Source: a virus. From it: a stretch of 64,000 bases of DNA. The notes beneath the pieces were generated by a model. It was not told the origin of the DNA. It saw nothing but the letters and a program-made list of their open reading frames with translations, and searched no databases. Location of the stretch: positions 96,001 through 160,000 of the IMG/VR virus record IMGVR_UViG_3300045806_000063. One strand, written 5' to 3'. Position numbers and translations under genes: made by a program. Shown in pieces: positions 1-58,733 of this stretch; the stretch's first letter is position 1; the number at the start of each line of letters is the position of its first letter.

Positions 1-3000
1 CTGCTGCATCGGCAGTGGTTGTTATAGCCTTATGTAAAGGAGCTATATCCACAGGGGGAGTAGAAGAACCTGCCCCAGTATCTGTAGTGCCTGATGCTGA
101 AGCATTTGTCGTATCAGCACTAGCCGCATTATCCGTAGCACTAGCTATGGCGGTAGGTGGCATTGGGTTAGTTCTTTTAGTTCCATCTAATCCAGCAGCT
201 GTTGAGTCTGGTACTGGGGCAGGAGACCCAGTATCTGAACTAGGCTTAGGACTAATTCCTCCGCCAGCACTGGCCATAAACTTTTCAGCTAATGCTCCAC
301 GAACACTCTTTTCTTTTTCGGTATCTCCAGGCCTTTCATAAAACTGAGATACAATAGCGCCAGCGTCTGCCGGACTGGTAGCATTCTTTAGTTTATCACC
401 AGCTCTTTTTTCACTATTTTTAAGTTCCCAGTCTACGAACTGAAGTTCTTCTGCTAGACTAGCCCCTTGGATAGATTTACCAAATACCTTTTGGAATATA
501 GCTTGTCGATCTGGGTGCCATTGACCTATCCCATATGCCTTTCCACCATCTCCCACTACATCTGGTCTAAAACCAGATTCGGTACTGATGTTAGCTGCTA
601 TACCAGCCGCTTGTGCTGCGGGCCATCCTAATTCCATTAGTACAGAAATGGCATATTTTGCTTTATCTAATAGACCTTTCCCAATATTACCAGCGGCAGT
701 GGTGATCTTACCAATTCCGGTTTCAATTGAAGTTGTAGCTTGTGAGGCTAATGCTGTAGCTGGTTTATAGATATTTTCACTAACATAGTTAGATGCTCTA
801 TCGGCTAATTGTCCTACTTGATTTTTAATATTATCCCAAGTACTCGGACTCTCAGATTCGGTTTCATCTTTATTTTTTTCTTTAGATGGATCTTCCCATG
901 GAAGTATCTCTCTTGGAGGCTTAATGTTATCTGTATTTTTAAGAGTCTTATCGTCTATCATTCTTATACCTGCACGAATCATATCTGATAAGGTATTAGC
1001 TAACTTTAAGTTGTCAGCTAAAGGTATATCTCCGAAAGGAGATTGTTGTTCACTAAATGGATTTGCACCAAGGCGAGATTCAGCATCACCGAATTGTACC
1101 ATATCTAGAAACGCTGTACGTTTTTCAGCAGTTTGGTTATTTACATATTCAAGTTCTGAACTGATTGTTCTAGCGGCTATTACATGTTTAATATATACAG
1201 GCATGAAACGATATGAGACCCATCTGGCAAACTTATTAAAAGCATTCTGATCAGTAGGGTTGTTATTAAAACGTGAAGCGTAATCAGTCCACATCTCTGG
1301 AATGGTCTTTTTAAAGTTAGGTCTACCTTCCTTGGATATAACTACATAATCTGCTATTTCAGATTCAAAGAATCTTATTGTTCTAACCGCATAACTGTTA
1401 TCTATCGGTATACCATACTGGAGATATCTTAATTTCTCCATATCGTTTAATGGTGAGAAATTCATTAGCTCAGCAGTGCCGTACCAGGCAGCAGTGCCTA
1501 CTGCCGCAACACCTAATGCTGCAAGAGTCTCTGGAAACGCCATAACAGCAGCAGTAGCTGCGCCGAATGCGGTTATTTTGGCTAGTCCTCGTATTAGCCC
1601 ACCAGCTATCCCGCCAGACTTTGCCTTACTTAATAGCCAAGTTGCGGTAGCTCCTACCACTCCAGCAGTTAGAGTACTTGGTCCATCTACCTTCTCATCC
1701 TTATCATCATTCTCTTCTGGTTTCTCTGTTTTTTCTGCAGGGGTAGAGTTAATTGATTCTTTAGCAGGTTTGTTAGATGTTAAGTCTGGCATTCCATGGT
1801 TCTTTTTTTTGCTATTTCTTTTCTTGACAATATCATTAGTTCCGCCTTCTCTATCAGCTTCCTTACTTTCCTTATCTTTGATAGGAAAGGCTTCTTGCAT
1901 ATGAGAGTATATCTTATTTAGAAGTTCCTCTACTTTAGTATCGTGACTAACTATAGTGTCTGTAAACTCAGCTACCACATTACTGATACCAGCTGAAACA
2001 GTGGAGTAAACTCCTGCTAAAGGCCTGATAGCCTTTTTCATTAAACCAGTTACTTTTTTGACTAGTTTAGTATTTTTAATACGGGTATTTAATCTAGAGA
2101 GTGCATCAATCGCTTTCATAATTAATCTAGGTAAACGAATACGCTTTCCAGTTAAAGCATCGAACACTCCAGCCTTAACTTCTTCATTACTTAAGACCTG
2201 TTTAGGTTCAGGGCCAGTAATGTCATAGACTGCTCCTCTAATGGCGTAAATGGTATTTATCACCTTACCAGTTGCAGCATCAATATAACCACCTTTCTCC
2301 ATAACCGATGCTAGTATTCGAGGTACAGTATCTCCTGCTACACATAAGTCTTTAAGTACATGGGTTTTTTCCCATAGAGATTTTAATCTAGCTATAGGCG
2401 ATTTTGCATTAGCATAATTTTTAATGCGTTGTATATTACCGTTTAACCCATGACCTTTAATGCCGGTATAAGCATCAACGATATTGTTCTTTGTGTTAAC
2501 AATGAATGGTTTTCCCTTTTCGTCAATCAGCCCTTCAAGATAATCCGCAGCACTTATAATCGTTTCGCCATGTCTATTAACTACAGCGCCTCGTATGTCA
2601 TCATAAGACTTTATTACTTTCTGTGTTATCTTGTCATAGTACTCGCCATTTAATAACCCTTCTAAACTCAATGCAGGAATGTGTTTAGTGTTTTTCTTAT
2701 AGACAGCCTTAATTGTTCTAAATGCTCCGCCTTTAGAACTAAGACTATCCATGGTTTTTGTAAATTTACCACCAGCCCATGTTGCAGCCGATTTAGCGAA
2801 GTCTTTACCTTTAGTGATTCCGGTGCCTAATAAACCTAACAAACTACCTATCAAACCTAAACCACTACCAGCTAATCCTACAGTCCCATCTGCTAAACCA
2901 AATAAACCACCTAATAGTTTGCGTATACTTGAGGTTTTACCACCAACTTTCTCATAAAGATTTTTACTACCTTCAGAAATCTTCGATCCTAAACCGTGGA

Positions 3001-5335
3001 ACATGCTTTCGCCATTAGATCCACCAGAGATATACCCTGTAGGTTTTTCTAATATCTTTTCCAGCATTGAAATTATTCTATCGGTATTACGAGATTGAGA
3101 ATTGACTATTCTATCAGCATCTTTACTAAATGATACTTGAACCTCTTTCTTCTCAGCTCTAGGTTTTTTAGATTTGTATTCTTTCTCTTCTTCAAAGGAG
3201 TCTTCCTTAGTAGATTTAGAACTTGATTTCCTGCCGGTAAATTTTCTCTTTATTTTAGCGAATAGAGAATCTTTCTTTTTAGCTTTAGCTTGAGGAGACC
3301 CTATAGATTCATCGTCCATATAGTCATTATAATCCCCCTTCTCTAATAAGGCTTTGACTAGACTCCATATGTATTCGTCGTTTACTCCGTGGTCATTGAC
3401 AATTCCCATCTGCCTTAAACTATCAGTATCTCCGACCATATAGTGAGTATTTAATATCTCTTGAGCTCCACCAAATGACTCACCTAATCGTTTAAAGTGT
3501 TTAGTAGCTTCTGAGTAGCGTTCACTAGATTCTTTATTACCAGTATGTTTCCATTTAGTTCTTCCTGTATTTAGATTTGTACCATTTTTCTCCACTCCAT
3601 AGGTGCTAGCAAAAAGATCTGCAATAGCAGGATCTATATCACTAGGAAGACTGAAGCTGTCAGCATATTCTGCTGGATCAAATTTTCCTTTCTTCGCCTC
3701 CCTAGCTAAAAATAATCCTAATTTAATTCGTTGATCAGGAGAGATCAGTGTATTATCTGGATCTAACTGTTTGATTATACCTTGTATTTCATGGTTAATA
3801 CCTGAGCTAAGGGTACCTTTAAAGTTTTTGGCTACTTCCTTATGTCTCTCTTTCATTCCTAAAAACTTTTCAGTTTGAGTAGAATATACTATTCTATCAC
3901 TCTTTTCATCTGAACCTGAAAGTATATTGTAAATGTCAGATTCTTTCTGTAAGATACGACTTAAGTACCCAGGTAATATGTCAATCAGCGTACGACGCTC
4001 TAATACACCCCAGGGAACAGCTGTAGTGGCGTCATATTCTAGTCTTCTATTAATCTGGTCATGTTGGTTAAGATCTATATTGGCAATGCGATCTAAGAAT
4101 CCCCAACCTCCTAGACCTCCAGATTCTCTCATTCTACTATATATATCTGCTGGTATAGTAGTTTTTTTCCTATCTAGCCAATTAGCACCTTTAGCAACAT
4201 TGTCTGGTAAATTAGGGAAAACTCTACCTAATGCTGAAATTATATTAGCACCATGTTTTTTTCCAAGTAGTTTGGAACTAAACGCTAAAGCCTCATCCGC
4301 AGCTCCTTCGCCCATCATTTTGTAAATGTCAGCTCCTGGCATCTGACTCATCATTTGCATCATGCCCATCTGTGAAGTTAAATCAGATATGCCAGACAGG
4401 TAATCCTTAGTCTCGTTAGATATCCCTATTTTCAGTTTACGAACTATGTCGCCTAGTCTATTTCGGCTATACTTTTGTAAACTACCGATAAGCATAGTCT
4501 TAGTCTGATTAGCAAATAGTTCATTATTGCTGACCTTTACTTCATTAGGAAGAGCCGTGTTGTACACGATATCTTTTAATTGTTCAAACTGCGCTTTGGT
4601 TGATTCATTGGTTAATGTTAACAGTTCTTTAGTTGCATAGTACTGACGGTATTGTATCTCTAATGTCTTCTTATGCCAAGCATTAAGAATAGTGTCTTGG
4701 TAACCTACTACTCGTGAAAGTAGTTTAGTTTGTGCGGAGTTATGCCCTGCACTATGTTCAAATTGCTTCTTATTAATAGCTCTATCTAATGTTGTGTGGG
4801 CTATTTGCTCTTTCTGTTGTGCATCAGCTTGTGCTTGCTCAGCTCCAAAAATACCCTGTAACATTGATGCAACATCAGAATCTTCCTTATTGTCATCATT
4901 ACTAGAGCTACTCCCGCCACTGCCGTTATCTGTTAAGGCACTTTCTAATCGGCTAGCTAGACCTTTCGGTAGTATTTTATTGGTAAATGGAGTAAAAGTC
5001 TTAAGTGCTGCTTTAGCAGATTTAAATGCAGGTTCGGCATCCCTTTTAGCCGAATAAAAGATACTAGAAACATCATTCGCTACACTCTCCAGACCTGTAT
5101 AAGCATCCGAATAGGATTTACCTAATGTGGCGAAAGCTAAACCAGCGGCAAATTTTCCAGCACCTTTTTTAGAAGCTATAGTACTCCTAAAGCTGGAAAT
5201 AGCTTTAATATGTGCTTTTCGGTTATCGACGACATCTGGGTCAAAGCCACCCAGCTCCATACTTAGATCATCATCATCCTCAAAGTTATATTCCTTCTCT
5301 TCAAGGAGGTCCTCTTTATCTCTATTTTTTGCCAT
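1..5335 (-). CDS. phiKZ gp181-like large tail protein (tape-measure-like) with C-terminal phage tail lysozyme domain; 3' end outside the window (>1770 aa)
   Basis: Absent from the ORF track because there is no stop in the window. ATG at 5335: MAKNRDKEDLLEEKEYNF. gp181-like motifs LEIQYRQYY, TALPNEVK and ILPGYLSRIL. Near 300-700: AQAAGIAANISTESGFRPDVVGDGGKAYGIGQWHPDRQ...ELQFVDWEL...FYERP (Phage_lysozyme2-like). Divergent from RNAP beta' as in phiKZ gp181/gp180. Frame read at both ends, not every codon between. Confidence 0.85.
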   Translation of the reverse strand, partial: MAKNRDKEDLLEEKEYNFEDDDDLSMELGGFDPDVVDNRKAHIKAISSFRSTIASKKGAGKFAAGLAFATLGKSYSDAYTGLESVANDVSSIFYSAKRDAEPAFKSAKAALKTFTPFTNKILPKGLASRLESALTDNGSGGSSSSNDDNKEDSDVASMLQGIFGAEQAQADAQQKEQIAHTTLDRAINKKQFEHSAGHNSAQTKLLSRVVGYQDTILNAWHKKTLEIQYRQYYATKELLTLTNESTKAQFEQLKDIVYNTALPNEVKVSNNELFANQTKTMLIGSLQKYSRNRLGDIVRKLKIGISNETKDYLSGISDLTSQMGMMQMMSQMPGADIYKMMGEGAADEALAFSSKLLGKKHGANIISALGRVFPNLPDNVAKGANWLDRKKTTIPADIYSRMRESGGLGGWGFLDRIANIDLNQHDQINRRLEYDATTAVPWGVLERRTLIDILPGYLSRILQKESDIYNILSGSDEKSDRIVYSTQTEKFLGMKERHKEVAKNFKGTLSSGINHEIQGIIKQLDPDNTLISPDQRIKLGLFLAREAKKGKFDPAEYADSFSLPSDIDPAIADLFASTYGVEKNGTNLNTGRTKWKHTGNKESSERYSEATKHFKRLGESFGGAQEILNTHYMVGDTDSLRQMGIVNDHGVNDEYIWSLVKALLEKGDYNDYMDDESIGSPQAKAKKKDSLFAKIKRKFTGRKSSSKSTKEDSFEEEKEYKSKKPRAEKKEVQVSFSKDADRIVNSQSRNTDRIISMLEKILEKPTGYISGGSNGESMFHGLGSKISEGSKNLYEKVGGKTSSIRKLLGGLFGLADGTVGLAGSGLGLIGSLLGLLGTGITKGKDFAKSAATWAGGKFTKTMDSLSSKGGAFRTIKAVYKKNTKHIPALSLEGLLNGEYYDKITQKVIKSYDDIRGAVVNRHGETIISAADYLEGLIDEKGKPFIVNTKNNIVDAYTGIKGHGLNGNIQRIKNYANAKSPIARLKSLWEKTHVLKDLCVAGDTVPRILASVMEKGGYIDAATGKVINTIYAIRGAVYDITGPEPKQVLSNEEVKAGVFDALTGKRIRLPRLIMKAIDALSRLNTRIKNTKLVKKVTGLMKKAIRPLAGVYSTVSAGISNVVAEFTDTIVSHDTKVEELLNKIYSHMQEAFPIKDKESKEADREGGTNDIVKKRNSKKKNHGMPDLTSNKPAKESINSTPAEKTEKPEENDDKDEKVDGPSTLTAGVVGATATWLLSKAKSGGIAGGLIRGLAKITAFGAATAAVMAFPETLAALGVAAVGTAAWYGTAELMNFSPLNDMEKLRYLQYGIPIDNSYAVRTIRFFESEIADYVVISKEGRPNFKKTIPEMWTDYASRFNNNPTDQNAFNKFARWVSYRFMPVYIKHVIAARTISSELEYVNNQTAEKRTAFLDMVQFGDAESRLGANPFSEQQSPFGDIPLADNLKLANTLSDMIRAGIRMIDDKTLKNTDNIKPPREILPWEDPSKEKNKDETESESPSTWDNIKNQVGQLADRASNYVSENIYKPATALASQATTSIETGIGKITTAAGNIGKGLLDKAKYAISVLMELGWPAAQAAGIAANISTESGFRPDVVGDGGKAYGIGQWHPDRQAIFQKVFGKSIQGASLAEELQFVDWELKNSEKRAGDKLKNATSPADAGAIVSQFYERPGDTEKEKSVRGALAEKFMASAGGGISPKPSSDTGSPAPVPDSTAAGLDGTKRTNPMPPTAIASATDNAASADTTNASASGTTDTGAGSSTPPVDIAPLHKAITTTADAA

Positions 5336-5360: not shown

Positions 5361-8300
5361 GTGAATATATCAAGACTACCATTTAATGTAAAACTTTTAG
5401 CCAATGACGCAAGTGCTATAGCTGGAGAGCTTGCTGTTGAAAATTTAGATATATTTAGTTCAGACAATCAATTTAACTCCGCAGGACTCTATAGTTCGGA
5501 GATATTTGGTGAGGTCGGAACTGATAAGCGTCTAAAGTCATTTGGCTTTATAGATATGCGTACTGAAATTATGCATCCTAAAATCTTTATGGAGTTGTGT
5601 AAACTCAAAGCCTTATATGAGGGTATACTCTCAGGTAGAGCTTACGCCGTATGGGATGAAAAAGCTAAAGATTTTGTTGGATCAAATGTAATCGACGGGC
5701 AAACTGGTTACAGTTTTTTCATGAATAAATTTTTAGAAATTATTCATGCTACAAACGATTCCAATCTTAGAGAACTCAGGATAATGCTCCTGGATAAATC
5801 TAAAGACAAATGCATGTATCGCTACTATCAAGTTATCCCTGCAGGACTTAGGGATATTGAACTAAATACACAGGAGAGGCCTAAGGAAGATGAGATTAAC
5901 ACCATCTACCGTAAATTAATTAGGGTCAGTAATACGATCTCTATCCACAACCGAAAATCTAATGATCCAATTTTAGATAACCCAAGAGGGCTATTACAGA
6001 CTGCAGCTAATAACATCTATGCACACCTTGAAGCTATCTTCTCTGGTAAACGTGGATGGTATCTAGATAAAGTAATAGCTCGTAATGTTCATGGTAGTAC
6101 TAGGAATGTTGCTACAGCAATGGACCCCTCTCCTGTACGTGTAGGGTCTAAAGAAGCATTAACCATAGACCACACCATCATTGGATTACATCAGTTCATG
6201 AAGGGCGCTGTTGAGCTTACAATCCATGATATACGCAAAGGGCCTATGCGGGATGTTATTGAATTCATGCCATCTATGGCATATGTCGTAGATAGTAAAA
6301 CTCTGCAAAGGAAAACAATTTTACCCAGTAGGTTTACAGTAGATAACTGGGGAACTGAAGAAGGTATTGAAAAATTAATCAATGGATTTGAAAAACCATA
6401 CGCTAGACATAAACCTATCTTGGTAGATGGGGATTATGCTGCATTACTGTATCGTGATACTAAACATTATAGAGTCTTTTATGATATAACTGACCTACCC
6501 AATGGTTTCTCCAAAAGCAATGTAAAGCCTATAACCTGGGCTGAAATGTTTTACCTATCTGTATATGAAAGTGCCGCTAAAGTAGGAGGGTATAACACTC
6601 GGTATCCTGTCGCTGGAATGGGTAGTTGTTATTGTAGTAAGTTATTTTTAGAGACTACTGTTAAATCAGATAGCTTAATTGAACTGGATGATAAGTGGAA
6701 TCCTACTAACAAAGATATCACACCTATTCATATGCCTCAAGCTGGTTTAGCATTCTTAGATAGTTCATCAGTACATATCAGTAAAGAACCAGACCTAGGA
6801 CTAGATCATGATGGTGATACATTCTCATTACCTATTGTGGTTTCAAAAGAAGCTATAAAAGAAGTAGATGATTATCTTAACTCACCTGAAGCATTTTTAA
6901 ATGAATCTGGAGGATTAAGATATGGTATTAATAACAAGATATCAGTAATGGTCTTAGAGAATTTTACCAGAGGATATTTCCCTAGCAGTCATGGGTTAGA
7001 GTCCTTAAATGGTACACCTGAAATCAGTCCAGCTACTAAAAAGGACTCAGATGATCTGGTTAAGTTAGCAATAACAATGATGGAAGAAACCCCATTCTTA
7101 TACCTTGGCTGGGATAGCGAAGACCAAATGGCACGACATGAGAAAAAACAACAAAAGAGGTTTATCGAATCAGCGTCAGGCGATATGCTATATTTTACCT
7201 TAAAACTTAAAGGTAAAATAATCGGTTTTATACGAGCCGCTATTAACAGTAAAAAGAAATCAGCTAATTTTGCAGTTGGTGTACTTAAAGAATATCATGG
7301 ACGTGGATATGGTAAGATGCTAGTCTTATACTTAATTCAAGTTCTTAAGGATAAGAAAGTTAACACTCTGACACTCAGTGTAGATAAGAATAACACAGTA
7401 GCATTAGGGTTATATCAGCGATTAGGATTTGTAGTAATAAGCGATTATACTTTTGAACAAACTCCAATGTATAGAATGTCTCTAGACTTAACCGATTATC
7501 ACTCATTTGGTATAGAGTCTTTATTTGGTGATGATGCAGAAGATATAGAAATCTGTGGGGTTGCTGATTGTACTGAGGTTATTGACTCTAACCATTATGA
7601 CATTAAAGGAGAAATAACAAAAGCCGTTCATGAAGCTGCTACCTCTCCTTTAAACACTTTAGATATTCCATCTGAAGCTATGTATAAAGCTGGTAACTAT
7701 AAAAAACCTTTAATTGATTTACATGGGTTAAAGATTAGAATAGAAAACCCACAAGGGTCAGTTAGATCTGGAACTGACGCAGATGGTAATGCGTGGTCTA
7801 ATCCAATCATGCATCATTATGGATATATCCTAGGAACTGATGGAGCCGATAACGACCCACTAGATGTATTCATTGGTGAACATCCCGAATCTCAAAGTGT
7901 CTTTATTATAAACCAAGTAGATCCTAAGACCCGTGAGTTTGACGAGCATAAGGTAATGCTAGGATTCAATTCAGCACTATCTGCTGAAGAAGGATACCTT
8001 AAGAACTATGAACTTGGTTGGAATGGATTAGATTCAATCGTAGAGACTGATATAGATGGTCTTAAAGATCTCATCAGCATAAATGAGTTTGATGATGAAA
8101 TAACCGACAACGATTTAGATGACTTTGGGTTAGAATCATTAGGATCAGGTCTACTAATCAGAGCTGCAACTATTGATGATAAAGAAGTTTTAAAATCCAT
8201 GCTAATTGAGGAAGCAATAGATTCTTATCTATATGAACCTGACTGCCTCTATCTAGCATTTAACAATAATGAATTGATTGGTTTTATCGGATGTGAAGTA

Positions 8301-9005
8301 AATCCATTTAATTCTAAAGCAGTTATGTCAATTGGAATCTCCGAATCTAATTTAGCACAAGGGGTATCTCTTATTCTAGTTGACACACTTGTTCAGTCCT
8401 TGATGGATAGAAAAGTGCGACATTTAATAACAGCCATACCATCCACATCTCCTGATAGCTTAGCTCAGTTTGAGTACTTAGGTTTCAGAATCATAAAACA
8501 CGATACCATTAATAACTTATATGCATTACAACTCGATATACAAAAACCAACTGCTTTAACTGTTTCAGTAAATAGTTCAGGATGTAACTATGGGTTAGAG
8601 TCTCTTAATAGTTCTGAGTATTATTACCATGGCAGCCCTAAGAGAAATGTCTTAACCTTACAACCAAACCCGTCAAGAGTACTTAATGGAGAGACAGCAG
8701 TATTTGCAGGAGAATACTGGACGGCTATAGCGTACACCAGATCTTGGTCTGATGAAGACTTTATACAAGGAACTATAAATGGCGCTCCATATATGAAGGA
8801 ACGATATGAGGGAGCATTCAAGAAAGTCTATGATGGTGGAGGCTGGGTGTATGCTGTTAGTAAATCCGATTTTCATCATGATCCAAGATTAACTAATTTT
8901 GAATATATCTCAGAACATCCTGTTAGAATTATAGGATCTGAATACATAAAAGACCCTATTCAAAAACTTAAAGAATTAGGAGTCAAACTTCAGTATTACA
9001 AATAA
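5361..9005 (+). CDS. Virion RNA polymerase beta' subunit (phiKZ gp180-like) fused to GNAT, inorganic pyrophosphatase, GNAT and ART-like modules
   Basis: aa 1-547: GLYSSEIFG, IMHPKIF, SGKRG, RNVHGSTRNV, TRYPV and catalytic DHDGD (aa 482-486, nt 6804-6818). GNAT motif EYHGRGYG...VDKNNTVALGLYQRLGF. InPase motif IENPQGSVRSG...HYGYILGTDGADNDPLDVFIG...FDEHKVMLGF. C-terminal YHGS...DPRLT. AGGAG RBS at 5349. Confidence 0.9.
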   Translation: MNISRLPFNVKLLANDASAIAGELAVENLDIFSSDNQFNSAGLYSSEIFGEVGTDKRLKSFGFIDMRTEIMHPKIFMELCKLKALYEGILSGRAYAVWDEKAKDFVGSNVIDGQTGYSFFMNKFLEIIHATNDSNLRELRIMLLDKSKDKCMYRYYQVIPAGLRDIELNTQERPKEDEINTIYRKLIRVSNTISIHNRKSNDPILDNPRGLLQTAANNIYAHLEAIFSGKRGWYLDKVIARNVHGSTRNVATAMDPSPVRVGSKEALTIDHTIIGLHQFMKGAVELTIHDIRKGPMRDVIEFMPSMAYVVDSKTLQRKTILPSRFTVDNWGTEEGIEKLINGFEKPYARHKPILVDGDYAALLYRDTKHYRVFYDITDLPNGFSKSNVKPITWAEMFYLSVYESAAKVGGYNTRYPVAGMGSCYCSKLFLETTVKSDSLIELDDKWNPTNKDITPIHMPQAGLAFLDSSSVHISKEPDLGLDHDGDTFSLPIVVSKEAIKEVDDYLNSPEAFLNESGGLRYGINNKISVMVLENFTRGYFPSSHGLESLNGTPEISPATKKDSDDLVKLAITMMEETPFLYLGWDSEDQMARHEKKQQKRFIESASGDMLYFTLKLKGKIIGFIRAAINSKKKSANFAVGVLKEYHGRGYGKMLVLYLIQVLKDKKVNTLTLSVDKNNTVALGLYQRLGFVVISDYTFEQTPMYRMSLDLTDYHSFGIESLFGDDAEDIEICGVADCTEVIDSNHYDIKGEITKAVHEAATSPLNTLDIPSEAMYKAGNYKKPLIDLHGLKIRIENPQGSVRSGTDADGNAWSNPIMHHYGYILGTDGADNDPLDVFIGEHPESQSVFIINQVDPKTREFDEHKVMLGFNSALSAEEGYLKNYELGWNGLDSIVETDIDGLKDLISINEFDDEITDNDLDDFGLESLGSGLLIRAATIDDKEVLKSMLIEEAIDSYLYEPDCLYLAFNNNELIGFIGCEVNPFNSKAVMSIGISESNLAQGVSLILVDTLVQSLMDRKVRHLITAIPSTSPDSLAQFEYLGFRIIKHDTINNLYALQLDIQKPTALTVSVNSSGCNYGLESLNSSEYYYHGSPKRNVLTLQPNPSRVLNGETAVFAGEYWTAIAYTRSWSDEDFIQGTINGAPYMKERYEGAFKKVYDGGGWVYAVSKSDFHHDPRLTNFEYISEHPVRIIGSEYIKDPIQKLKELGVKLQYYK

Positions 9006-9013
9006 CCTCTACC

Positions 9014-9046
9014 TATCACCATATCTGCTAAGTAGATATGGTGATA
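9014..9046 (+). terminator. Hairpin after the RNAP beta' polyprotein
   Basis: 13-bp stem TATCACCATATCT/AGATATGGTGATA followed by CTTTTCTT. Confidence 0.7.
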
Positions 9047-9054
9047 ACTTTTCT

Positions 9055-9152
9055 TATATTCAAATAATTTTCATTTATATATCATCTAGATGAGATTACT
9101 AAATTAGTATTTCTTAAGCAGCTATTCTTTTAATAGCAAATTAGATTTGGAG
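9055..9152 (+). promoter_or_regulatory. Repeated early promoter-leader-RBS module, type A, copy 1
   Basis: TATATCATCTAGATGAGATTACTAAAT...TTCTTAAG...GCTATTCTTTTAATAGCAAATTAGATTTGGAG, near-identical to copies at 22172, 36360 and 53423. Core resembles the phiKZ early promoter TATATTAC. Confidence 0.75.
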
Positions 9153-13429: not shown

Positions 13430-13491
13430 GTCGTTATTTTTTCTTATCTTTTATATGAATCGTTTGTAATGTTAATTAATCTGGAGTGGTA

Positions 13492-16400
13492 ATGAGTTCT
13501 CTACTAAAAATAAAAGAATTTGAAACAAGATTTACTGTAAATCAAATAACGAAAATATCAGGATCATTCAAAAAATTTACACCTGATGTAATGTTTTTAC
13601 CTGAGAATGCAATGATTCATTTCATTGCTGAGACTAGCACTGAACTAGGTATTGATAAAAGTTTTTCACTACTGAGAAACTACTACAATGCTACGACCAT
13701 TTACCATGTTAAAGAACTTAAAGCAGTAGTAGGCTCTCCTTCTGCAGTTAGAGGGACTACAATTAAGCAACTGATAATTGCATACCATCGTACTCATCTA
13801 GAGATTAAAGAGTTATCTAATTTGGATAGATCTGTGTCTCTTGAAAAGAATCCAATCGTTGTAAACTATGCATTGTTAGCTAGAGTGTATAGTTATCCAA
13901 AACACGTCTTAAGCGAATATCATGAGTGGATGAATATACGAACCACTATGTGGGATACGATAGCTCAGATTGGTAGTAGGCGAGAACATTTTATTCGTTT
14001 TAAATTACCACTTCATCTTCAAACTAAGAATGAGTTAAACAAGTGTTTATCAGGGTTTAATTCTAGTGACTTAAACAACTTCCACACTAAAGATGATTTT
14101 GATTTAATGGAGTTATGGCAGATACTACATCCTCAAATTGAAACTCCAGTAACAAAGATTAGTGACTCTATATTGAGTAATGTATTTTTGACCTTTATTG
14201 AATCTGGGGTAATAGCTATAATTTCTTTAGGGGAGTTAATAGAATGGGCAGTAGAGGACTATGAGACTGCTACGAATAGCTTTCATAAATTCTTGGATAC
14301 CCTGATAGGGTTAAGAAGTCCTATTGATCTGAAGCAATTAGAATCTGATTCTGCTGACTTAGCTGATCATGTTGATGTTGATAGTAAAATAGTAAAGCTG
14401 ATTAATGCACATGGTGAAGTAGGAAATATATCCCATGGTGAACAGAAAGCTTTATTGAAATTATCAGAAAGATATAAAACCATAAAAGATCCAGCAGGTT
14501 CTGGTTTTACAGTAGAAGAATTAACGAAAGGTCCTCAAAATAAACCAATACTGAGAGAAGCTTTAATAAATGATCCTGCTGGTGTTATTAATCAGGATAT
14601 GCTTTATTCAAGTGTAGATTACAAAGAAAAAGCATATGTAAAAGATGTAATGCATAAAAATATGCTGCAAATGATTCTAAAATTACAGGATGGCGGCATC
14701 ATCATTAAGGATATAAAACTTAACAAAAGAATAGATGCAGCTAACAAACAGTTTGAATATACAGTAGCAGTGACTCCTGTAGCCGGGGAAGCTAGTACAT
14801 TGCCAATAACTATACCGGTTATAGAACCTGACGGAAGTTTCCTGCTGGGGGCTACTAAGTATAGGTTAGATACTCAGAAAGGTGAAATGCCGGTAGTAAA
14901 GACTAAAGCGAACACAGTAGCCTTAACTAGCTACTATAGTAAAATCTTTATAATAAGAACTGAATCTGCAAACCTAAACTATAGCAGATGGATTAGCAAA
15001 ATACTATTAAATCAGAGTGAAGCTGGAGGAGTGGTAACTGACTTAATTCATGGGATATCACACATAACCGATAAAGTCCCTAGAGGTTACTCAGCTATTG
15101 GTGAGAACTATAAGAGTTTCACAGTAAAAGGACAGTATGCTTTTACTTTTGCTTACTCTGACATTAACACTAATTTTACACCAGAAGAAGTGACTACCTT
15201 TGAACAGATGAAACTCGTACCTTGCGGTAGAGATTTAAAATCAAAATCACCTATTGGGATGGACGCTGAAGGTAAAATATATTTGGTTGTTATCAAAGAT
15301 AAAAATGATGGTATGATTTATTTGGGAACTATTCCAAATTTAATTAGTGAAGATCTTGGTAATGGTCCTAATGAGTTTACTGAGTTTGGTATGTTTGGTA
15401 AAAGGGTACCTATCATCTTAGCTTTAATGATGAGGGATGGTCTTGAAAAGACTCTAAAAAATTTACATGTAGAGTATAGCATAAATCCAGTTGCATCAAC
15501 CAGGATAGTTTTTGACCCTACTAAGCTTATCTTAAAGTGTAAAGATTCCACATACATCATAGACATAACTAACCCTTTCAGACGATTAATAGTTTCAGGG
15601 TTATATGTGTTAAGGGATATAAGTACACGATATAAAGCTATCGACTTTAACCATACTCAGTCCTATGGTTCAATATTCTCTGCTATTGGGTTAAGCTCCC
15701 ACTATATTAAAGAAATTGATTTAATGTGGGATATGTTTATAGATCCAATAACTGAAGAACTTTTAACAGTGACAAAAGAACCTACCAATTTTAAAGACCT
15801 GCTATTACATGCTAGCGACTTGTTAATAGATGACCATATACCTGATGTAACTAGTGTTAGGAATAAAGGTTATGAACGTATATGCGGAATGGTATATCGT
15901 GAACTCGTATTAGCCATGCGCGAGCATAGAGGCAAAGGATCATCAGTTGGTTCAAAGTTTACACTAAATCCTAATGCGATAATGATGTCGATACAACAAG
16001 ATCAAACACAGACATTAGTCGAGGAATCAAACCCTATACATAACCTGAAAGAAAAGGAATCAGTAACATGTGTTGGTGCAGGGGGACGAAATACTGATAC
16101 GATGATGCATAAGGATCGTGGGTTCACTAAACATGATTTTGGTATTTTATCTACTGATACTCCTGACTCTGGAAAGGTAGGGGTTCGTGGAAGTTTAGCA
16201 CCTGATGCAAACTATACTTCGGTGTATGGTACTGTGGAGGCTCTAGATCCTGCGACAGCTAAAAACCCAGTACAAGTATTAAGTACCTCAATGTTATTAG
16301 CTCCTGGAGTTACCCATGACGATGGTAGACGTGGCAACTTTATAGGTATTCAAAATAGTCACACAGTAGGATGTGAAAATTATGATGCTTTACCTTATTG

Positions 16401-17448
16401 TACAGGATATGAAGAGGTAGTAGCAGGTAGAACCGATGAACTCTTTGCAATAAAAGCTAAAGAAGATGGAACTGTTGAAAAGGTAACTGCTTCCATGTTA
16501 ACCGTTATCTTTAAAGGAGCAGGAAAGGTAAACTATGAAATCGGTGTACGACACGGTGTTGCTTCTGGTAAAGTTACTCCTCATAATAGAGTAACTGATC
16601 TTAGAGCTGGTGATAAATTTAACAAGAATGATATTTTGATATGGGATTCAGGTTTCTTTGAAAGAAGTTTAATAAATCCTAACAACGTAGTTCATAAACA
16701 AGGGATCTTAGCTAGGTTTGTTTTTGTTGACAATGCTTTAACCAATGAAGACGGCTGTGTTATCACTGATAAGTTTGCATCTAAGATATATACCATGAAA
16801 ACTAAGTTACATGCCATTATCATAGATTTTGATATGATAGTCCATAATTTAGTCACTGTCGGAACAGAAGTCACTCCTGAAACCATTCTATGTACCCTGG
16901 AGGGGTTTGTTCACGATGCTTTACAAACTAAAGATCCTGAGGCTATAAAGGCTTTGTCTGACATTAGTGCTGGTAATCCTAAAGCAAAAGTCTATGGTAA
17001 AATAACTAATATGGATATGGTTTACTATGGAAAGATAGAGGATATGCATTCTAGTATGCAGGAATTAGCTACCAAGTTTGATAACAGTAGGGCTAAACGT
17101 GTGAATACTTTTAACCTTGACGAAGCTAAGACTGGAAAGATCTCAAGTTCGATAAGGGTAGGTGGTATTAAACTTGAACCAAATCAAATGGCTATCAGGA
17201 TCTATATCGATGATATACTGGATATGAATACTGGTGATAAAGGTGTAGTGTGTCATCAATTGAAGACTACGATATCTTCAGTCACTCCAGATCCAATAAC
17301 AACTGAAGATGGACAGGAATTAGATGGCGAGTTTGCTTACATGTCAATTAGTAACCGAATCGTCGAGTCTGTTATTATAGTTGGAATGGCGTGTGAGATA
17401 CTGGCTGCTGGTACTAAAAATATGGTAAAGATTTATAAATCACATTAA
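13492..17448 (+). CDS. Virion RNA polymerase beta subunit, large part (phiKZ gp178-like)
   Basis: ~1320 aa. LPITIPVIEPDGSF, YRLDTQKGEMPVVK, SNPIHNLKEKE, GGR, DTPDSGKVG, NFIGIQNSH, LPYCTGYE, GDKGVVCHQLKTTI. ATG 13492 with GGAG RBS. Confidence 0.9.
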   Translation: MSSLLKIKEFETRFTVNQITKISGSFKKFTPDVMFLPENAMIHFIAETSTELGIDKSFSLLRNYYNATTIYHVKELKAVVGSPSAVRGTTIKQLIIAYHRTHLEIKELSNLDRSVSLEKNPIVVNYALLARVYSYPKHVLSEYHEWMNIRTTMWDTIAQIGSRREHFIRFKLPLHLQTKNELNKCLSGFNSSDLNNFHTKDDFDLMELWQILHPQIETPVTKISDSILSNVFLTFIESGVIAIISLGELIEWAVEDYETATNSFHKFLDTLIGLRSPIDLKQLESDSADLADHVDVDSKIVKLINAHGEVGNISHGEQKALLKLSERYKTIKDPAGSGFTVEELTKGPQNKPILREALINDPAGVINQDMLYSSVDYKEKAYVKDVMHKNMLQMILKLQDGGIIIKDIKLNKRIDAANKQFEYTVAVTPVAGEASTLPITIPVIEPDGSFLLGATKYRLDTQKGEMPVVKTKANTVALTSYYSKIFIIRTESANLNYSRWISKILLNQSEAGGVVTDLIHGISHITDKVPRGYSAIGENYKSFTVKGQYAFTFAYSDINTNFTPEEVTTFEQMKLVPCGRDLKSKSPIGMDAEGKIYLVVIKDKNDGMIYLGTIPNLISEDLGNGPNEFTEFGMFGKRVPIILALMMRDGLEKTLKNLHVEYSINPVASTRIVFDPTKLILKCKDSTYIIDITNPFRRLIVSGLYVLRDISTRYKAIDFNHTQSYGSIFSAIGLSSHYIKEIDLMWDMFIDPITEELLTVTKEPTNFKDLLLHASDLLIDDHIPDVTSVRNKGYERICGMVYRELVLAMREHRGKGSSVGSKFTLNPNAIMMSIQQDQTQTLVEESNPIHNLKEKESVTCVGAGGRNTDTMMHKDRGFTKHDFGILSTDTPDSGKVGVRGSLAPDANYTSVYGTVEALDPATAKNPVQVLSTSMLLAPGVTHDDGRRGNFIGIQNSHTVGCENYDALPYCTGYEEVVAGRTDELFAIKAKEDGTVEKVTASMLTVIFKGAGKVNYEIGVRHGVASGKVTPHNRVTDLRAGDKFNKNDILIWDSGFFERSLINPNNVVHKQGILARFVFVDNALTNEDGCVITDKFASKIYTMKTKLHAIIIDFDMIVHNLVTVGTEVTPETILCTLEGFVHDALQTKDPEAIKALSDISAGNPKAKVYGKITNMDMVYYGKIEDMHSSMQELATKFDNSRAKRVNTFNLDEAKTGKISSSIRVGGIKLEPNQMAIRIYIDDILDMNTGDKGVVCHQLKTTISSVTPDPITTEDGQELDGEFAYMSISNRIVESVIIVGMACEILAAGTKNMVKIYKSH

Positions 17449-17651: not shown

Positions 17652-19070
17652 ATGTTAAATGAAAGAAATCTGAAATTAGGTCATGAGATAGCTGCATCCT
17701 TGGAGTACAGTAATAAGAATCTTCTTCCAGTTCCTCAAGGGCCGATTGATACTATTATGAAGGCCTTATATCTTGATAATGCCACGATTGACAATGGTAC
17801 GATCCTTGAAGTCGCTGAAGTTAAAACTTCCGTCATGGGCAGTTATGAACAGGTACTAACGAAAGTTGCTCACACCTATTCAAACATCGTAAGCAATATA
17901 GTGAATGCTGCACGCAACACTGTAAAACCGTTAGTGGATAGAATCTTTGAAGAGGTTCATAAAAGTAATCAGAGTTCGCTACTGGAAGGAACAAATCTGT
18001 TTAAAGAAATTATTCAACTGGTACCACCAAGAATACTGTATGATGAACAGTTCGTTAATCTATTGGGTGAATACAAAGAAGTAATTTACCCAAACCTGAA
18101 TGAACTGAAAGATATCCTGCCAGTTCTTAACCATGTGTTCAGTTCAGACGAACTGTACGACCTTACCTTGACAGGGAGTCCATTAATCGATGGTAAGTTG
18201 AGAGAAGTAATTAAACCTAACTCAGTACTGTCATTGGCTCCAGACTACAATCATAGTGCAGATATGATACCTTTCATTCCTGCACTTACGCTATTTATGT
18301 TATTACAAGGTGTAATAAATCGACGCTCTGATAAAGTAGATTCCATGTTCGAAGGAGAGTTACTTGAATCTCAAGTACTGAGTATGCGAAATGCAGTAGG
18401 TGGTGCCTTACATCGTCTGTCTAAAGAGTTTATAGATGATATCGAACAAAATCGTATCTTCTGTAAACGTCCAAGACTGTACTGTGTTTCACCTGAGATG
18501 CACGACTATGATCAGGAACAAATATATGTATATGCAAAAGCATACCAGGAATGGATTGCTGGAAGTAATGGATCTATCGAGGCATTATTAGGGTTTGTTG
18601 CAGAACATCCAAATGAACTGTTTAATGAGAACCTTATAAAGGATGCAAAAAGATATGAAGAGATTTATCATCAAAAAATCAGATCTTTGGATATCGTCAA
18701 ATCATTAAACGATATCACTCGTATCAGAAAAATTACTCACACCATCATGGAAAGTTATCTGAATGTAAATAATGATGGTACAACTGCTGAACTAATTTTA
18801 CAGCATCAAAGATTAGCAGCAGCTATTGCTCATGATTACCATGGTCCTAATGATCTCGTACCTTATCTGATTAAAGTGGTAGCACGAACATTGTACCCTT
18901 CATTTAATTCAAAAATAGAAGAATTGAATAAGTCTGATGTTAAAGATGTTTTACTTGAAACATTTGCACTGACTTCTGATGTTGCTGAACCTGATCATGA
19001 GATGGCTTTATTTATAGCCACTACCAGGTTAGTGATGAAAAAGTTATCCAAAGAACTTATAATAGTCTAA
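17652..19070 (+). CDS. Virion protein, phiKZ gp177-like by position
   Basis: 472 aa, between RNAP beta and the gp176-like gene; ARNTVKPLV motif. Confidence 0.6.
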   Translation: MLNERNLKLGHEIAASLEYSNKNLLPVPQGPIDTIMKALYLDNATIDNGTILEVAEVKTSVMGSYEQVLTKVAHTYSNIVSNIVNAARNTVKPLVDRIFEEVHKSNQSSLLEGTNLFKEIIQLVPPRILYDEQFVNLLGEYKEVIYPNLNELKDILPVLNHVFSSDELYDLTLTGSPLIDGKLREVIKPNSVLSLAPDYNHSADMIPFIPALTLFMLLQGVINRRSDKVDSMFEGELLESQVLSMRNAVGGALHRLSKEFIDDIEQNRIFCKRPRLYCVSPEMHDYDQEQIYVYAKAYQEWIAGSNGSIEALLGFVAEHPNELFNENLIKDAKRYEEIYHQKIRSLDIVKSLNDITRIRKITHTIMESYLNVNNDGTTAELILQHQRLAAAIAHDYHGPNDLVPYLIKVVARTLYPSFNSKIEELNKSDVKDVLLETFALTSDVAEPDHEMALFIATTRLVMKKLSKELIIV

Positions 19071-19780
19071 TGGATATTACTCATTTAAAACGTAACCCTG
19101 ATAAAGTTAAAGAGGCTATGAAGGAGGTAGGGGATTCATTAATCGCTGTAAAGCCTTTAAAGATATATCTGCCGGAACATTATGGTAACATAGGGTTCTT
19201 TAACTTAGGTGAAGTAACTACTATGGTAGCTGTCTGGGGTGTTGTAGTAGATGACTACTATGAGTTAAGTGTTGCTGCCACCATAGGCATCACTGCGCCA
19301 TCTAATGTTACTGTAGTGACAATAAATGGCTCTAAGTATTATGAACTCAGTTATGAGAAACATGATAAAATCTGGGTAAACTTAAACATGGTAAAGGTGA
19401 ATACATTATTCCTGATACTATATCAGGAATTTATAGCTAAAGCTAACATCCCATGGTACATGAGCTATGAACAAATTGGACTCATCAGTGAGACTGCTCA
19501 GTTACATGCTGATGCTAATCTAGGTACTGACTCTGCTATTATAGAACTGATGATAAGTGCTACAGCTAGACAGCATAAAGATAAAAAGGAATTTATTCGA
19601 CATCAAGCTAATGTCTCACCTGATACCGTACCAGCGTATATACCTTTAACTTCGGTAGCCTTCCAAGTTACTAATACCTTTGCTAAATTAGCCGGTGGTT
19701 ATTTTAATGAAGGTATGACTAGCGCATTAGTGTATCCAACAACAACCAATGAACCAATTGAAACAATTCTTAGAGAATGA
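19070..19780 (+). CDS. phiKZ gp176-like protein, candidate small virion RNAP subunit
   Basis: 236 aa, LKRNPDKVK...IYLPEHY...EFIAKANIPWYMSY...KLAGGYFNEGMTSALV; conserved position upstream of the head protease. Confidence 0.65.
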   Translation: MDITHLKRNPDKVKEAMKEVGDSLIAVKPLKIYLPEHYGNIGFFNLGEVTTMVAVWGVVVDDYYELSVAATIGITAPSNVTVVTINGSKYYELSYEKHDKIWVNLNMVKVNTLFLILYQEFIAKANIPWYMSYEQIGLISETAQLHADANLGTDSAIIELMISATARQHKDKKEFIRHQANVSPDTVPAYIPLTSVAFQVTNTFAKLAGGYFNEGMTSALVYPTTTNEPIETILRE

Positions 19781-20551: not shown

Positions 20552-21397
20552 ATGATCATGCGTCACGCAAAAAAACACCAACTGGATAACCTTTATGCAA
20601 TGGTCTGTAAATGGAAGTTGGATATCCTACTGGAAGAACTTAAAAGACGGTCTCAAGAGCCTTTAATTAGCGAACAAGAGATCAACGATTTCAGAACTAA
20701 TATACCTAACCTCACACAGCTCCAACGTGAAACAGTCTTAAAGTCTTTGTATCCAGCTCCAAGCTCTAATAACAACTCTGAATATCATTACTTTAGTAAG
20801 TTAAAAACCTTAGGAGTGGTACGTGTTGAGATATTGAAATTACTCAATGTAAAAAAGGATTTGATCTTACCAGCAGCTCAGACCTCATTTATACATAGGA
20901 CGTTAAATGAAACACCAAGTACTATTCAAACCATGCACCGCCTCCTGCTTAAATATCATCAGATTATTGATTATATAATCCCTAGTCAATGGGAGGTCTT
21001 TAATACCCATATTCTGAACCCTACACTAATTCCAGCTCCACATACTCTGTCTAACCGACTGTACTTTATCCTTCAGTTTATACTCAAAACTCCAGAGGTA
21101 GATACTTCGGAAGTGTTGGAAATGATCAAATTACAAACAGGTATAAAACGTCTTTTTAATAGTGATGGCGAAATCTGCGATGGATTAAATTCCGATAGCG
21201 ATAAGTTTAATAAGGTAGTCTACTGGACGCCTACTGCTATGAACGAGTTTAATAAAATCTATAATGAACTGGTAGGTATACAGCGTGAACTATACGATAC
21301 TCATGGGATAAATTTATACAGAATAGGAGATAACACATGCCAATTGCCGAATACCGTACAATGGCTTATGGCGGGGCCAACCCTTGTAGTAAGCTAG
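20552..21397 (+). CDS. Hypothetical protein
   Basis: 281-aa ORF, 3' end overlaps the protease start. Confidence 0.65.
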   Translation: MIMRHAKKHQLDNLYAMVCKWKLDILLEELKRRSQEPLISEQEINDFRTNIPNLTQLQRETVLKSLYPAPSSNNNSEYHYFSKLKTLGVVRVEILKLLNVKKDLILPAAQTSFIHRTLNETPSTIQTMHRLLLKYHQIIDYIIPSQWEVFNTHILNPTLIPAPHTLSNRLYFILQFILKTPEVDTSEVLEMIKLQTGIKRLFNSDGEICDGLNSDSDKFNKVVYWTPTAMNEFNKIYNELVGIQRELYDTHGINLYRIGDNTCQLPNTVQWLMAGPTLVVS

Positions 21398-22125
21398 AAA
21401 CAGATAGTAACGGGTATCGTAAATGTATCGTTGGCGCTTTTGATGTAATGTCAAGGAATGGACACCGATATCCTGGAACTGAAAGAGTTTTAGCTCTTTT
21501 TGATGAAAAAAGTCATTTCATGATTGGAGTGAGAGAAGGTAACTGTAGAGGAGAGTCTGATCACCCTAATTTAGTTGGGTTATCAATTCCTCAAAAAATC
21601 CATAGGTTGGAACAGATTGAAGACACTAGAGTCTGTGTGCATCATAAGCGTTTCATACTGGATCATGGGTTAGATGAACATAGAAACAAAGTAATATTAG
21701 TCTACAGTTGGCTGAAAGGTTCTGGTGCATTAGGACATGTAACTGAACAACAGTTAGATAATCCTGACGAGAATATATCCTTTAGTGTACGTTCTTTTGT
21801 TATAGATACCCTGCAGAGTGGGATTAAGCATAAAGAAATAACTAACATTATAACCTATGACAAAGTTAATCAAGCTGGATTATCATTCACAACTAAATTC
21901 GACACAGCAGCACTGCGAAATTCTAGTGTTGGTCTTGAGAACTTGAATGATGATGGTTTTGTATTTAGCGATGCTGATCTAGATCTTGCTATACGTGAAT
22001 CTAGAAGTGCTGGAGTGGGCAATGAATCAAATGTCGCTAGGTTAGTTCAAGTGAAAGATTCATTAGGTTGGACAAAAGTACAATCGATAAATCCAGCTTT
22101 CCTTAACTGGAGATCCACGATATAA
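21337..22125 (+). CDS. Prohead (head maturation) protease, phiKZ gp175-like
   Basis: VGAFDVMSRNGHRY, RGESDHP (catalytic His), ISFSVRS (catalytic Ser), TYDKVNQAG. C-terminal VGLENL and VGNESN putative autocleavage sites. AGGAG RBS. Confidence 0.85.
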   Translation: MPIAEYRTMAYGGANPCSKLETDSNGYRKCIVGAFDVMSRNGHRYPGTERVLALFDEKSHFMIGVREGNCRGESDHPNLVGLSIPQKIHRLEQIEDTRVCVHHKRFILDHGLDEHRNKVILVYSWLKGSGALGHVTEQQLDNPDENISFSVRSFVIDTLQSGIKHKEITNIITYDKVNQAGLSFTTKFDTAALRNSSVGLENLNDDGFVFSDADLDLAIRESRSAGVGNESNVARLVQVKDSLGWTKVQSINPAFLNWRSTI

Positions 22126-58674: not shown

Positions 58675-58703
58675 GGGTATAGAGCACGATGTGCTCTATA
58701 CCC
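58675..58703 (+). terminator. Hairpin terminator after chimallin
   Basis: GGGTATAGAGCAC-GAT-GTGCTCTATACCC then TTTTTTT. Confidence 0.75.
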
Positions 58704-58733
58704 GTACTTTTTTTATTATTAAGAAAGGAAAGT

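What the first reader, a model, noticed from the sequence alone, without database searches (positions are those of the whole stretch)
5361..9005. Virion RNA polymerase beta' is a polyprotein carrying four effector modules, each behind a head-protease-type GLES site
Seen: a complete RNAP beta' (DHDGD at aa 482) ends at about aa 547 and continues in frame through GNAT, InPase, GNAT and ART-like domains. The motif G-[LI]-E-S-L occurs at each boundary: HGLESL aa 545 (nt 6993), FGIESL aa 717 (7509), FGLESL aa 923 (8127) and YGLESL aa 1078 (8592). The head protease in this window has similar C-terminal sites (VGLENL 21931, VGNESN 22018). Known: the phiKZ gp175-type protease cleaves after S/A/G-X-E, and the phiKZ gp180 homolog is a stand-alone subunit of about 550 aa. 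Inference: the phage uses the essential virion RNAP as a packaging tag, so host-takeover enzymes enter the prohead at fixed stoichiometry, are cut free at maturation and are injected with the DNA. I do not know of this architecture being described.
Basis: partly seen in the sequence, partly recalled or inferred. Interest (0 to 1): 0.95.

Follow-up and report, generated by a model that had tools for sequence, protein, structure and literature searches.

The report
Virion polymerase subunit carrying cleavable cargo
A nucleus-forming giant phage has four extra protein domains strung onto a subunit of the RNA polymerase it packs into its head, each behind the cut site of its own head protease, and distant relatives have done the same independently with other cargo, so this subunit probably serves as a reusable carrier for proteins injected with the DNA; no cutting has been measured.

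Summary
ORF 5361-9005 (1214 aa) is the phiKZ gp180-type N-terminal beta' fragment of the virion RNA polymerase (aa 1-540; not a complete beta'). It continues into a GNAT, an InPase, a degenerate GNAT and a DUF6886-related domain whose ART fold is unproven. G-[LI]-E-S sits at all four joints. The same motif marks this phage's capsid, portal and inner-head propeptides, and a G-L-E site in the protease tail aligns with the mass-spectrometry-proven SPN3US autocleavage site. New here: among relatives, 7 of 9 cargo-bearing lineages have [S/A/G]-x-E starting 2-8 residues after the polymerase core, with different cargo; one origin is rejected (AU p 1e-92). Published gp180 fluorescent fusions are packaged and injected. 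Best reading (0.7): a carrier polyprotein cut in the prohead. Host takeover is less certain, because the polymerase enters the EPI vesicle, and some relatives keep a GNAT or InPase attached with no site. Reads could not be checked. I found no paper describing this. The scan has noted the same carrier in another genome and protease-jointed polyproteins in other jumbo phages.

The parts
5361..9005 (+). Polyprotein ORF, 1214 aa, 136.4 kDa
5361..7001 (+). Virion RNAP N-beta' (phiKZ gp180 / SPN3US gp240 orthologue), aa 1-547, 61.7 kDa, DHDGD at aa 482
   Evidence: phrog_2986 E 3e-162; 34% to phiKZ gp180, E 2e-80; synteny
6993..7004 (+). Predicted cut site 1, GLE/S (P1 Glu547), starting 4 aa after the core end
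7002..7517 (+). Module 1: RimI-like GNAT, 19.6 kDa, acetyl-CoA loop intact
   Evidence: PF00583; TIGR01575 E 1.5e-13, below cut-off
7509..7520 (+). Predicted cut site 2, GIE/S (P1 Glu719)
7518..8135 (+). Module 2: InPase of the polyvalent-protein type, 22.7 kDa, DxDPxD motif intact
   Evidence: PF18823 E 3e-49; homologues fused to portal and minor head proteins
8127..8138 (+). Predicted cut site 3, GLE/S (P1 Glu925)
8136..8600 (+). Module 3: divergent GNAT, 17.0 kDa, degenerate acetyl-CoA loop
8592..8603 (+). Predicted cut site 4, GLE/S (P1 Glu1080); the released piece would begin where stand-alone homologues begin
8601..9005 (+). Module 4: 15.5 kDa DUF6886-related domain with YHGS motif; ART-like by pattern only
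   Evidence: homologue passes the DUF6886 cut-off and hits ART-PolyVal at E 0.17; fold searches not significant
9014..9046 (+). 15-bp perfect hairpin after the stop codon, terminator-like
   Evidence: z -7.2
1..5335 (-). gp181 homologue (tail protein; runs beyond the window start), divergent neighbour as in phiKZ
13486..17448 (+). Virion RNAP N-beta (gp178 homologue), no GLES site
19070..19780 (+). gp176 homologue, virion RNAP C-beta'
21337..22125 (+). Prohead protease, Peptidase_S80 (gp175/gp245 orthologue); C-terminal sites GLE/N (21931) and GNE/S (22018)
56757..58664 (+). Chimallin homologue, upstream of the non-virion RNAP gp55 homologue (58689-60311); places the phage among nucleus-forming phages
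   Evidence: phrog_4795 E 3e-13

Best explanation
The gene makes one 136-kDa chain. Its first 547 residues assemble into the five-subunit virion RNA polymerase and take the tail into the prohead (inferred from phiKZ fusions and SPN3US genetics). At maturation the phage's S80 protease cuts after each G-[LI]-E (inferred from the motif in its own head proteins and from homology to proven sites). This leaves a normal-length polymerase subunit and four folded 15-23 kDa proteins, one of each per polymerase, about 10 copies if phiKZ numbers hold. These are injected with the DNA (inferred). The InPase most likely removes pyrophosphate beside the polymerase inside the early infection vesicle. GNAT1 and the last domain most likely modify proteins or defence molecules early in infection; their targets are unknown. 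The gp180 C-terminus is a recurrent landing site for such cargo: small genes with their own x-x-E leader sit just downstream and become fused.
For: Shown: motif at 4 of 4 joints, P 3e-7. Of the other 8 GLES in the genome, 7 are in the N-terminal regions of the major capsid, portal and internal head proteins. Capsid homology to distant phages begins at aa 159-169, next to GLE/S at 168. Portal and capsid sites fall near SPN3US ATE-161 and ATE-130. The protease's GLE/N aligns with SPN3US gp245 AQE-203 in the pairwise alignment and with phiKZ ALE/N. No module has a start codon with a ribosome site. Relatives from other assemblies: L010 (66%) has InPase-GNAT-HAD behind GLE, GTE and GNE; P0002 (67%) has InPase and other modules with SLE and GLE. 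Distant lineages L025, P0029, P0048, P0079, P0102 and P0147 have a site 2-8 aa after the core; 7 of 9 lineages, P 3e-8; at least 7 changes are forced on the tree and one clade is rejected. P0133, where the appended part is polymerase (gp80), has no site. Unfused states: L022, L090 and L001 have a next gene with a short leader or propeptide ending GLE or SLE. Papers.
Against: No virion, proteomics or reads exist for this phage. All 14 proven SPN3US cuts remove propeptides, and its vRNAP subunits are not among the nine substrates. Five relatives carry a GNAT with no site, although the protease of the P0006 phage has GLE sites. P0002 has GCG (Ala) at P1 of the first site. One GLES lies in the tail protein gp181 and is not conserved, so the motif also occurs by chance. 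The junction statistic used a motif and window chosen after seeing the data. Linkers are not richer in disorder-type residues than the whole protein.
Confidence: 0.7

Rival explanations
1. The chain is packaged and cut, but the cut mainly frees the polymerase. The tail pieces are discarded like propeptides or are largely decayed passengers, and the sites are kept because an uncut tail would hinder ejection.
For: All 14 proven SPN3US sites remove propeptides, up to 27.9 kDa. The 201phi2-1 vRNAP beta loses a 275-aa propeptide. GNAT2 is degenerate.
Against: GNAT1 and the InPase keep their catalytic motifs, and the InPase is 48-64% identical across three phages. The modules have no internal sites to shred them. 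Sites separate every module, where one site would free the polymerase.
Confidence: 0.12
2. The chain stays whole or is only partly cut. It is a polyvalent protein whose domains act while tethered to the polymerase in the vesicle.
For: Site-less GNAT fusions in P0003-P0006 and P0008, and the lost first site in P0002. The N4 vRNAP is packaged unprocessed. The AR9 vRNAP carries a fused HD domain. Incomplete cutting occurs in SPN3US.
Against: It does not explain a near-perfect copy of the capsid maturation motif at all four joints, nor its repeated independent appearance right after the core in other lineages.
Confidence: 0.13
3. Assembly or read-through artefact: separate genes joined by sequencing error, or modules expressed from internal starts.
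For: The exact protein is on one contig only. Reads were not available.
Against: Independent JGI and Logan assemblies show the same carrier with InPase and GNAT. GC and GC3 are uniform over the modules. There are no internal starts with ribosome sites.
Confidence: 0.03

Closest known systems
Polyvalent proteins of phages, including N4-like virion RNAP fused to ART, lysozyme and MPTase (Iyer et al. 2017, PMC5512222)
   Same: A virion RNAP as anchor for effector domains; the same domain pool (InPase, RimI-like GNAT, ART); delivery with the DNA is predicted; a PPi-clearing role was proposed for the InPase.
   Different: There the polymerase is single-subunit, release is ascribed to an embedded metallopeptidase, and N4 vRNAP is packaged uncut. 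Here the carrier is one subunit of a multisubunit enzyme, no peptidase domain was detected in the chain, and the joints match the separate head protease. phiKZ is not mentioned in that paper.
Substrates of giant-phage prohead proteases, MEROPS S80 (phiKZ gp175, SPN3US gp245, 201phi2-1; PMC5694885, PMC10052503)
   Same: Cut after small-x-Glu with a small P1'; same substrates (capsid, portal, inner head proteins, protease tail); one vRNAP subunit (201phi2-1 beta) is a known substrate.
   Different: Known cuts in SPN3US remove propeptides. Here the cuts would release four folded domains from the C-terminus of N-beta', which is 537 aa and stands alone in SPN3US.
T4 internal proteins and Alt with the capsid targeting sequence (as reviewed in PMC5694885)
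   Same: Cargo, including an ART, enters the prohead through a tag and is trimmed by the head protease after Glu.
   Different: T4 uses a 10-20 aa leader per protein. Here an essential 62-kDa enzyme subunit would be the shared tag for several cargoes.
HD-domain fusion on the C-beta vRNAP subunit of AR9/PBS1 (PMC7598289, PMC7824862)
   Same: A phosphohydrolase fused to a jumbo-phage vRNAP subunit.
   Different: Different subunit, one fixed domain, no cut site or variable cargo reported.

Membership tests
phiKZ-type virion RNAP N-beta' (gp180) | Sequence family and DxDGD catalytic motif | tested here: met
   phrog_2986 E 3e-162; DHDGD at 482
phiKZ-type virion RNAP N-beta' (gp180) | Lies in the gp181-gp180-gp178-gp176-gp175 block, with a separate non-virion RNAP set in the genome | tested here: met
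phiKZ-type virion RNAP N-beta' (gp180) | Present in virions | not testable with these tools
   shown for phiKZ gp180 only
Substrates of S80 prohead proteases | Genome encodes an S80 protease with C-terminal self-cleavage sites | tested here: met
   PF20034 E 1e-48; sites align with phiKZ and SPN3US
Substrates of S80 prohead proteases | [S/A/G]-x-E motif shared with the phage's capsid and portal propeptides, outside folded domains | tested here: met
   domain edges from profiles and stand-alone homologues, not from a structure model
Substrates of S80 prohead proteases | Cleavage seen by mass spectrometry or in vitro | not testable with these tools
   uncultured phage
Polyvalent proteins (Iyer 2017) | Several unrelated effector domains of the polyvalent pool in one chain, in a virion-gene context | tested here: met
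   InPase PF18823 and two GNATs in the head and vRNAP block
Polyvalent proteins (Iyer 2017) | Embedded metallopeptidase for self-processing (common, not universal) | tested here: not met
   no peptidase hit in Pfam or PHROGs; the chain is accounted for by five other domains
ADP-ribosyltransferase superfamily (module 4) | Profile match to an ART family | tested here: inconclusive
   DUF6886 E 0.046; homologue DUF6886 above cut-off and ART-PolyVal E 0.17; no Arr-ms candidate in the genome
ADP-ribosyltransferase superfamily (module 4) | ART fold | tested here: inconclusive
   model pLDDT 62; Arr at rank 3 in PDB (E 0.51) and rank 4 in BFVD (E 0.083); VIA-align best Z 2.4
RimI-like GNAT (modules 1 and 3) | GNAT profile and acetyl-CoA loop | tested here: inconclusive
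   met for module 1; module 3 matches the fold but the loop is degenerate; both are below the RimI equivalog cut-off
Chimalliviridae (nucleus-forming phages) | Encodes chimallin next to the non-virion RNAP beta' gene | tested here: met
   phrog_4795 E 3e-13 at 56757-58664

The most novel reading that the evidence does not exclude
Across nucleus-forming jumbo phages, the C-terminus of the catalytic virion RNAP subunit is a repeatedly and independently used loading dock. Lineage-specific enzymes are fused behind the phage's own maturation site, released in the head and delivered at one copy per polymerase into the early infection vesicle, where they supply the sealed compartment (PPi removal) or counter early defences.
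Probability: 0.5. Interest if true: 0.85.

Novelty: new variant of a known kind. Interest (0 to 1): 0.74.

Why it matters
What jumbo phages inject to protect and run their genome in the first minutes is an open question, and most head proteins have no known function. If this holds, the gp180 tail gives a sequence rule for naming injected proteins in uncultured phages, with exact predicted termini. It would also show the head protease releasing folded enzymes from an essential subunit, not only removing propeptides. The InPase suggests how transcription copes with pyrophosphate inside a closed vesicle. The idea can be tested in phiKZ with existing gp180 fusion methods.

Tried and rejected
ART fold: the single-sequence model failed (pLDDT 37); the three-sequence model gave no significant match; the Atlas fold library was unavailable and further Atlas queries were busy. 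Protein, phage, plasmid and GTDB searches for module 4 found only two homologues. No structure model of the linkers was made, as both jobs went to module 4; a composition proxy for disorder showed nothing. Internal translation starts: rejected. A DNA repeat at the joints: rejected, codons differ. Non-virion RNAP identity: rejected, the gp55 homologue is a separate gene. GNAT1 as a phiKMV Rac orthologue: the 30 listed hits were generic phage and RimI-like acetyltransferases. The L022 downstream gene is not detectably related to module 4. Thomas et al. 2012 was not held, so the phiKZ motif is cited through PMC5694885. Literature searches found no report of this architecture, but subscription papers are missing. 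Complex prediction was not used, since protease-substrate jobs are uninformative. Tree rows were a sample of homologues with core length 525-565 aa plus all extended ones; intein-bearing P0007 and P0152 were left out.
Full report
1. The observation. The window holds one open frame at 5361-9005 of 1214 aa. Residues 2-536 match phrog_2986 at E 3e-162 and phiKZ gp180 at 34%. After that come a GNAT (aa 556-699), an InPase (aa 774-905, PF18823 E 3e-49), a second, weaker GNAT and a 134-aa last domain. G-[LI]-E-S starts at aa 545, 717, 923 and 1078, between the domains each time. Four such motifs in the tail have P 3e-7 by composition. They use different codons, so the repeat is at the protein level. 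No module has its own start codon with a ribosome site. Reads could not be obtained, and the exact protein is known from this contig only.

2. The setting. The genome is a 181-kb virus record with direct terminal repeats. It has homologues of phiKZ gp181, 180, 178, 176 and 175 in the phiKZ order, a separate non-virion polymerase set and a chimallin. So this is the catalytic N-terminal beta' fragment of the virion polymerase of a nucleus-forming phage. It is not a complete beta': the middle and C-terminal fragments are separate genes (PMC7598289).

3. The motif is this phage's maturation site. GLES occurs 11 times in the predicted proteome against 1.5 expected. Three are in this ORF. Seven are in the N-terminal regions of the major capsid protein (41, 168), the portal (168, 207, 287) and an internal head protein (54, 111). 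One is in the tail protein and is not conserved. Capsid similarity to distant phages begins at aa 159-169. The protease is an S80 family member. Its GLE/N aligns with SPN3US gp245 AQE-203 in the pairwise alignment, a site proven by mass spectrometry (PMC10052503), and with ALE/N of phiKZ gp175. SPN3US prefers Ser at P1'. This step rests on homology; no cut was observed.

4. Relatives carry other cargo. L010 (66% identical, split by a group I intron-like element) continues GLE-InPase-GTE-GNAT-GNE-HAD-like. P0002 (67%) has the InPase directly after the core, then modules behind SLE and GLE. Module order therefore differs among close relatives. Among 149 representative homologues, 10 exceed 600 aa. 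Measured from the profile-defined core end, [S/A/G]-x-E followed by a small or acidic residue starts 2-8 residues later in P0001, L010, L025, P0029, P0048, P0079, P0102 and P0147. The chance rate per such window is 0.052; 7 of 9 lineages gives P 3e-8, and 8 of 15 proteins gives 2e-7. The motif and window were chosen after seeing the data. P0049 has an N-terminal module followed by SLE/S. On the tree the label needs 8 changes, with 7 forced by well-supported branches, and a single clade is rejected at p-AU 1e-92. L025, P0079, P0147 and P0029 each have a cargo-free sister. P0133, whose extension is the gp80 polymerase fragment, has no site. In L025 the junction is S-T-E and its own protease has S-L-E and S-V-E, a mild sign that the linker follows the phage's own specificity.

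5. Likely origin. In L022, the sister of L025, the next gene overlaps the gp180 stop (TAATG) and begins with a 10-aa leader ending GLE/A. In L090 the next gene is a GNAT with a leader ending SLE/T. In L001 the next gene is a 39% identical free copy of the fused tail, GLE site included. I infer that small head-cargo genes with their own cleavable leader collect behind gp180 and become fused. For module 4, free homologues have no leader and start where the cut product would start, so that site may have arisen at or after fusion.

6. Exceptions. P0003-P0006 and P0008 have a GNAT fused with no site, although the protease of the P0006 phage has GLE sites. P0002 has Ala at P1 of the first site, one base from Glu. 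P0129 has cargo with K-T-E only. So cargo can stay attached, and release is an added feature.

7. The modules. GNAT1 is RimI-like with an intact acetyl-CoA loop. GNAT2 has a degenerate loop. The InPase keeps its acidic motif and belongs to the type fused to portal and minor head proteins. Module 4 is related to DUF6886. Its YHGS pattern and weak, non-significant hits to Arr and ART-PolyVal fit an ART fold but do not prove it.

8. Mechanism. Shown in phiKZ: gp180 with a fluorescent protein at either end is packaged and injected, at about 10 polymerases per virion. Shown in SPN3US: the polymerase assembles before it enters the prohead. Shown in 201phi2-1: a vRNAP subunit can be cut by the protease. 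Inferred here: packaging, four cuts, retention of the 15-23 kDa products, and injection. The polymerase works inside a lipid vesicle cut off from the cytoplasm. This makes pyrophosphate removal beside the polymerase the most natural role for the InPase, a role also proposed in PMC5512222. Host takeover by the GNAT and module 4 would need exit from that vesicle, which is untested. I put packaging, cutting and delivery at 0.7 and a mainly host-takeover role at about 0.4.

9. Comparison and novelty. It works like a polyvalent protein (N4-like vRNAP with ART) processed like an S80 substrate. Each ingredient is known. I found no paper on a multisubunit vRNAP subunit as carrier with head-protease joints, or on its repeated origin. 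Unchecked notes of this scan describe protease-jointed polyproteins in other jumbo phages and one case of this carrier with InPase-GNAT-HAD; that architecture matches L010, which I examined myself. Verdict: real, a new variant of a known kind, interest 0.74.

Noticed in passing
L010:7486-8112 and 16 other loci (for example L011, L029, L030, L036, L044, L056): The gp180 gene is often interrupted right at the DxDGD motif; in L010 the insert matches Rfam group I intron (E 1.6e-9, below the gathering score). P0007 and P0152 have long inserts at the same spot, intein-like by Pfam for P0007.
   Followed up: partly
P0133: Natural fusion of virion RNAP N-beta' and Mid-beta' (gp180 + gp80, 44% to phiKZ gp80), so an unsplit form exists.
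   Followed up: partly
P0003-P0006, P0008 (L002, L013, L094): A clade of phages with contigs up to 200 kb has a GNAT fused to the catalytic vRNAP subunit with no cut site.
   Followed up: partly
L082:1471-1893 (-); L086:2998-3453 (+): The free homologue of module 4 lies 3 nt downstream of the prohead protease gene in a relative. Another homologue (39%) is on a contig labelled as a giant-virus MAG.
   Followed up: partly
window 9014-9140: A perfect hairpin and then an AT-rich promoter-like leader follow the ORF; seven small genes separate gp180 from gp178, where relatives have none to two.
   Followed up: no
genome C1:40831-43632 (outside the window): Portal with three GLES sites in a predicted propeptide of about 290 aa.
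   Followed up: partly
genome C1:10629-10976 (outside the window): 115-aa protein with GVE/S at aa 15, a candidate small head protein with a short leader.
   Followed up: no
L025:7600-7983; P0002 tail; L001:5683-6402: An unnamed domain (phrog_30942 for L025, with an H-S-x-G motif) is cargo on gp180 in two distant lineages. P0029 and P0079 share another cargo family (phrog_17560, ParB-like by eye).
   Followed up: partly
L095 (G047:C1:281022-281186): Weak Arr-like match inside a 2614-aa open frame of another jumbo phage, possibly another polyprotein.
   Followed up: no
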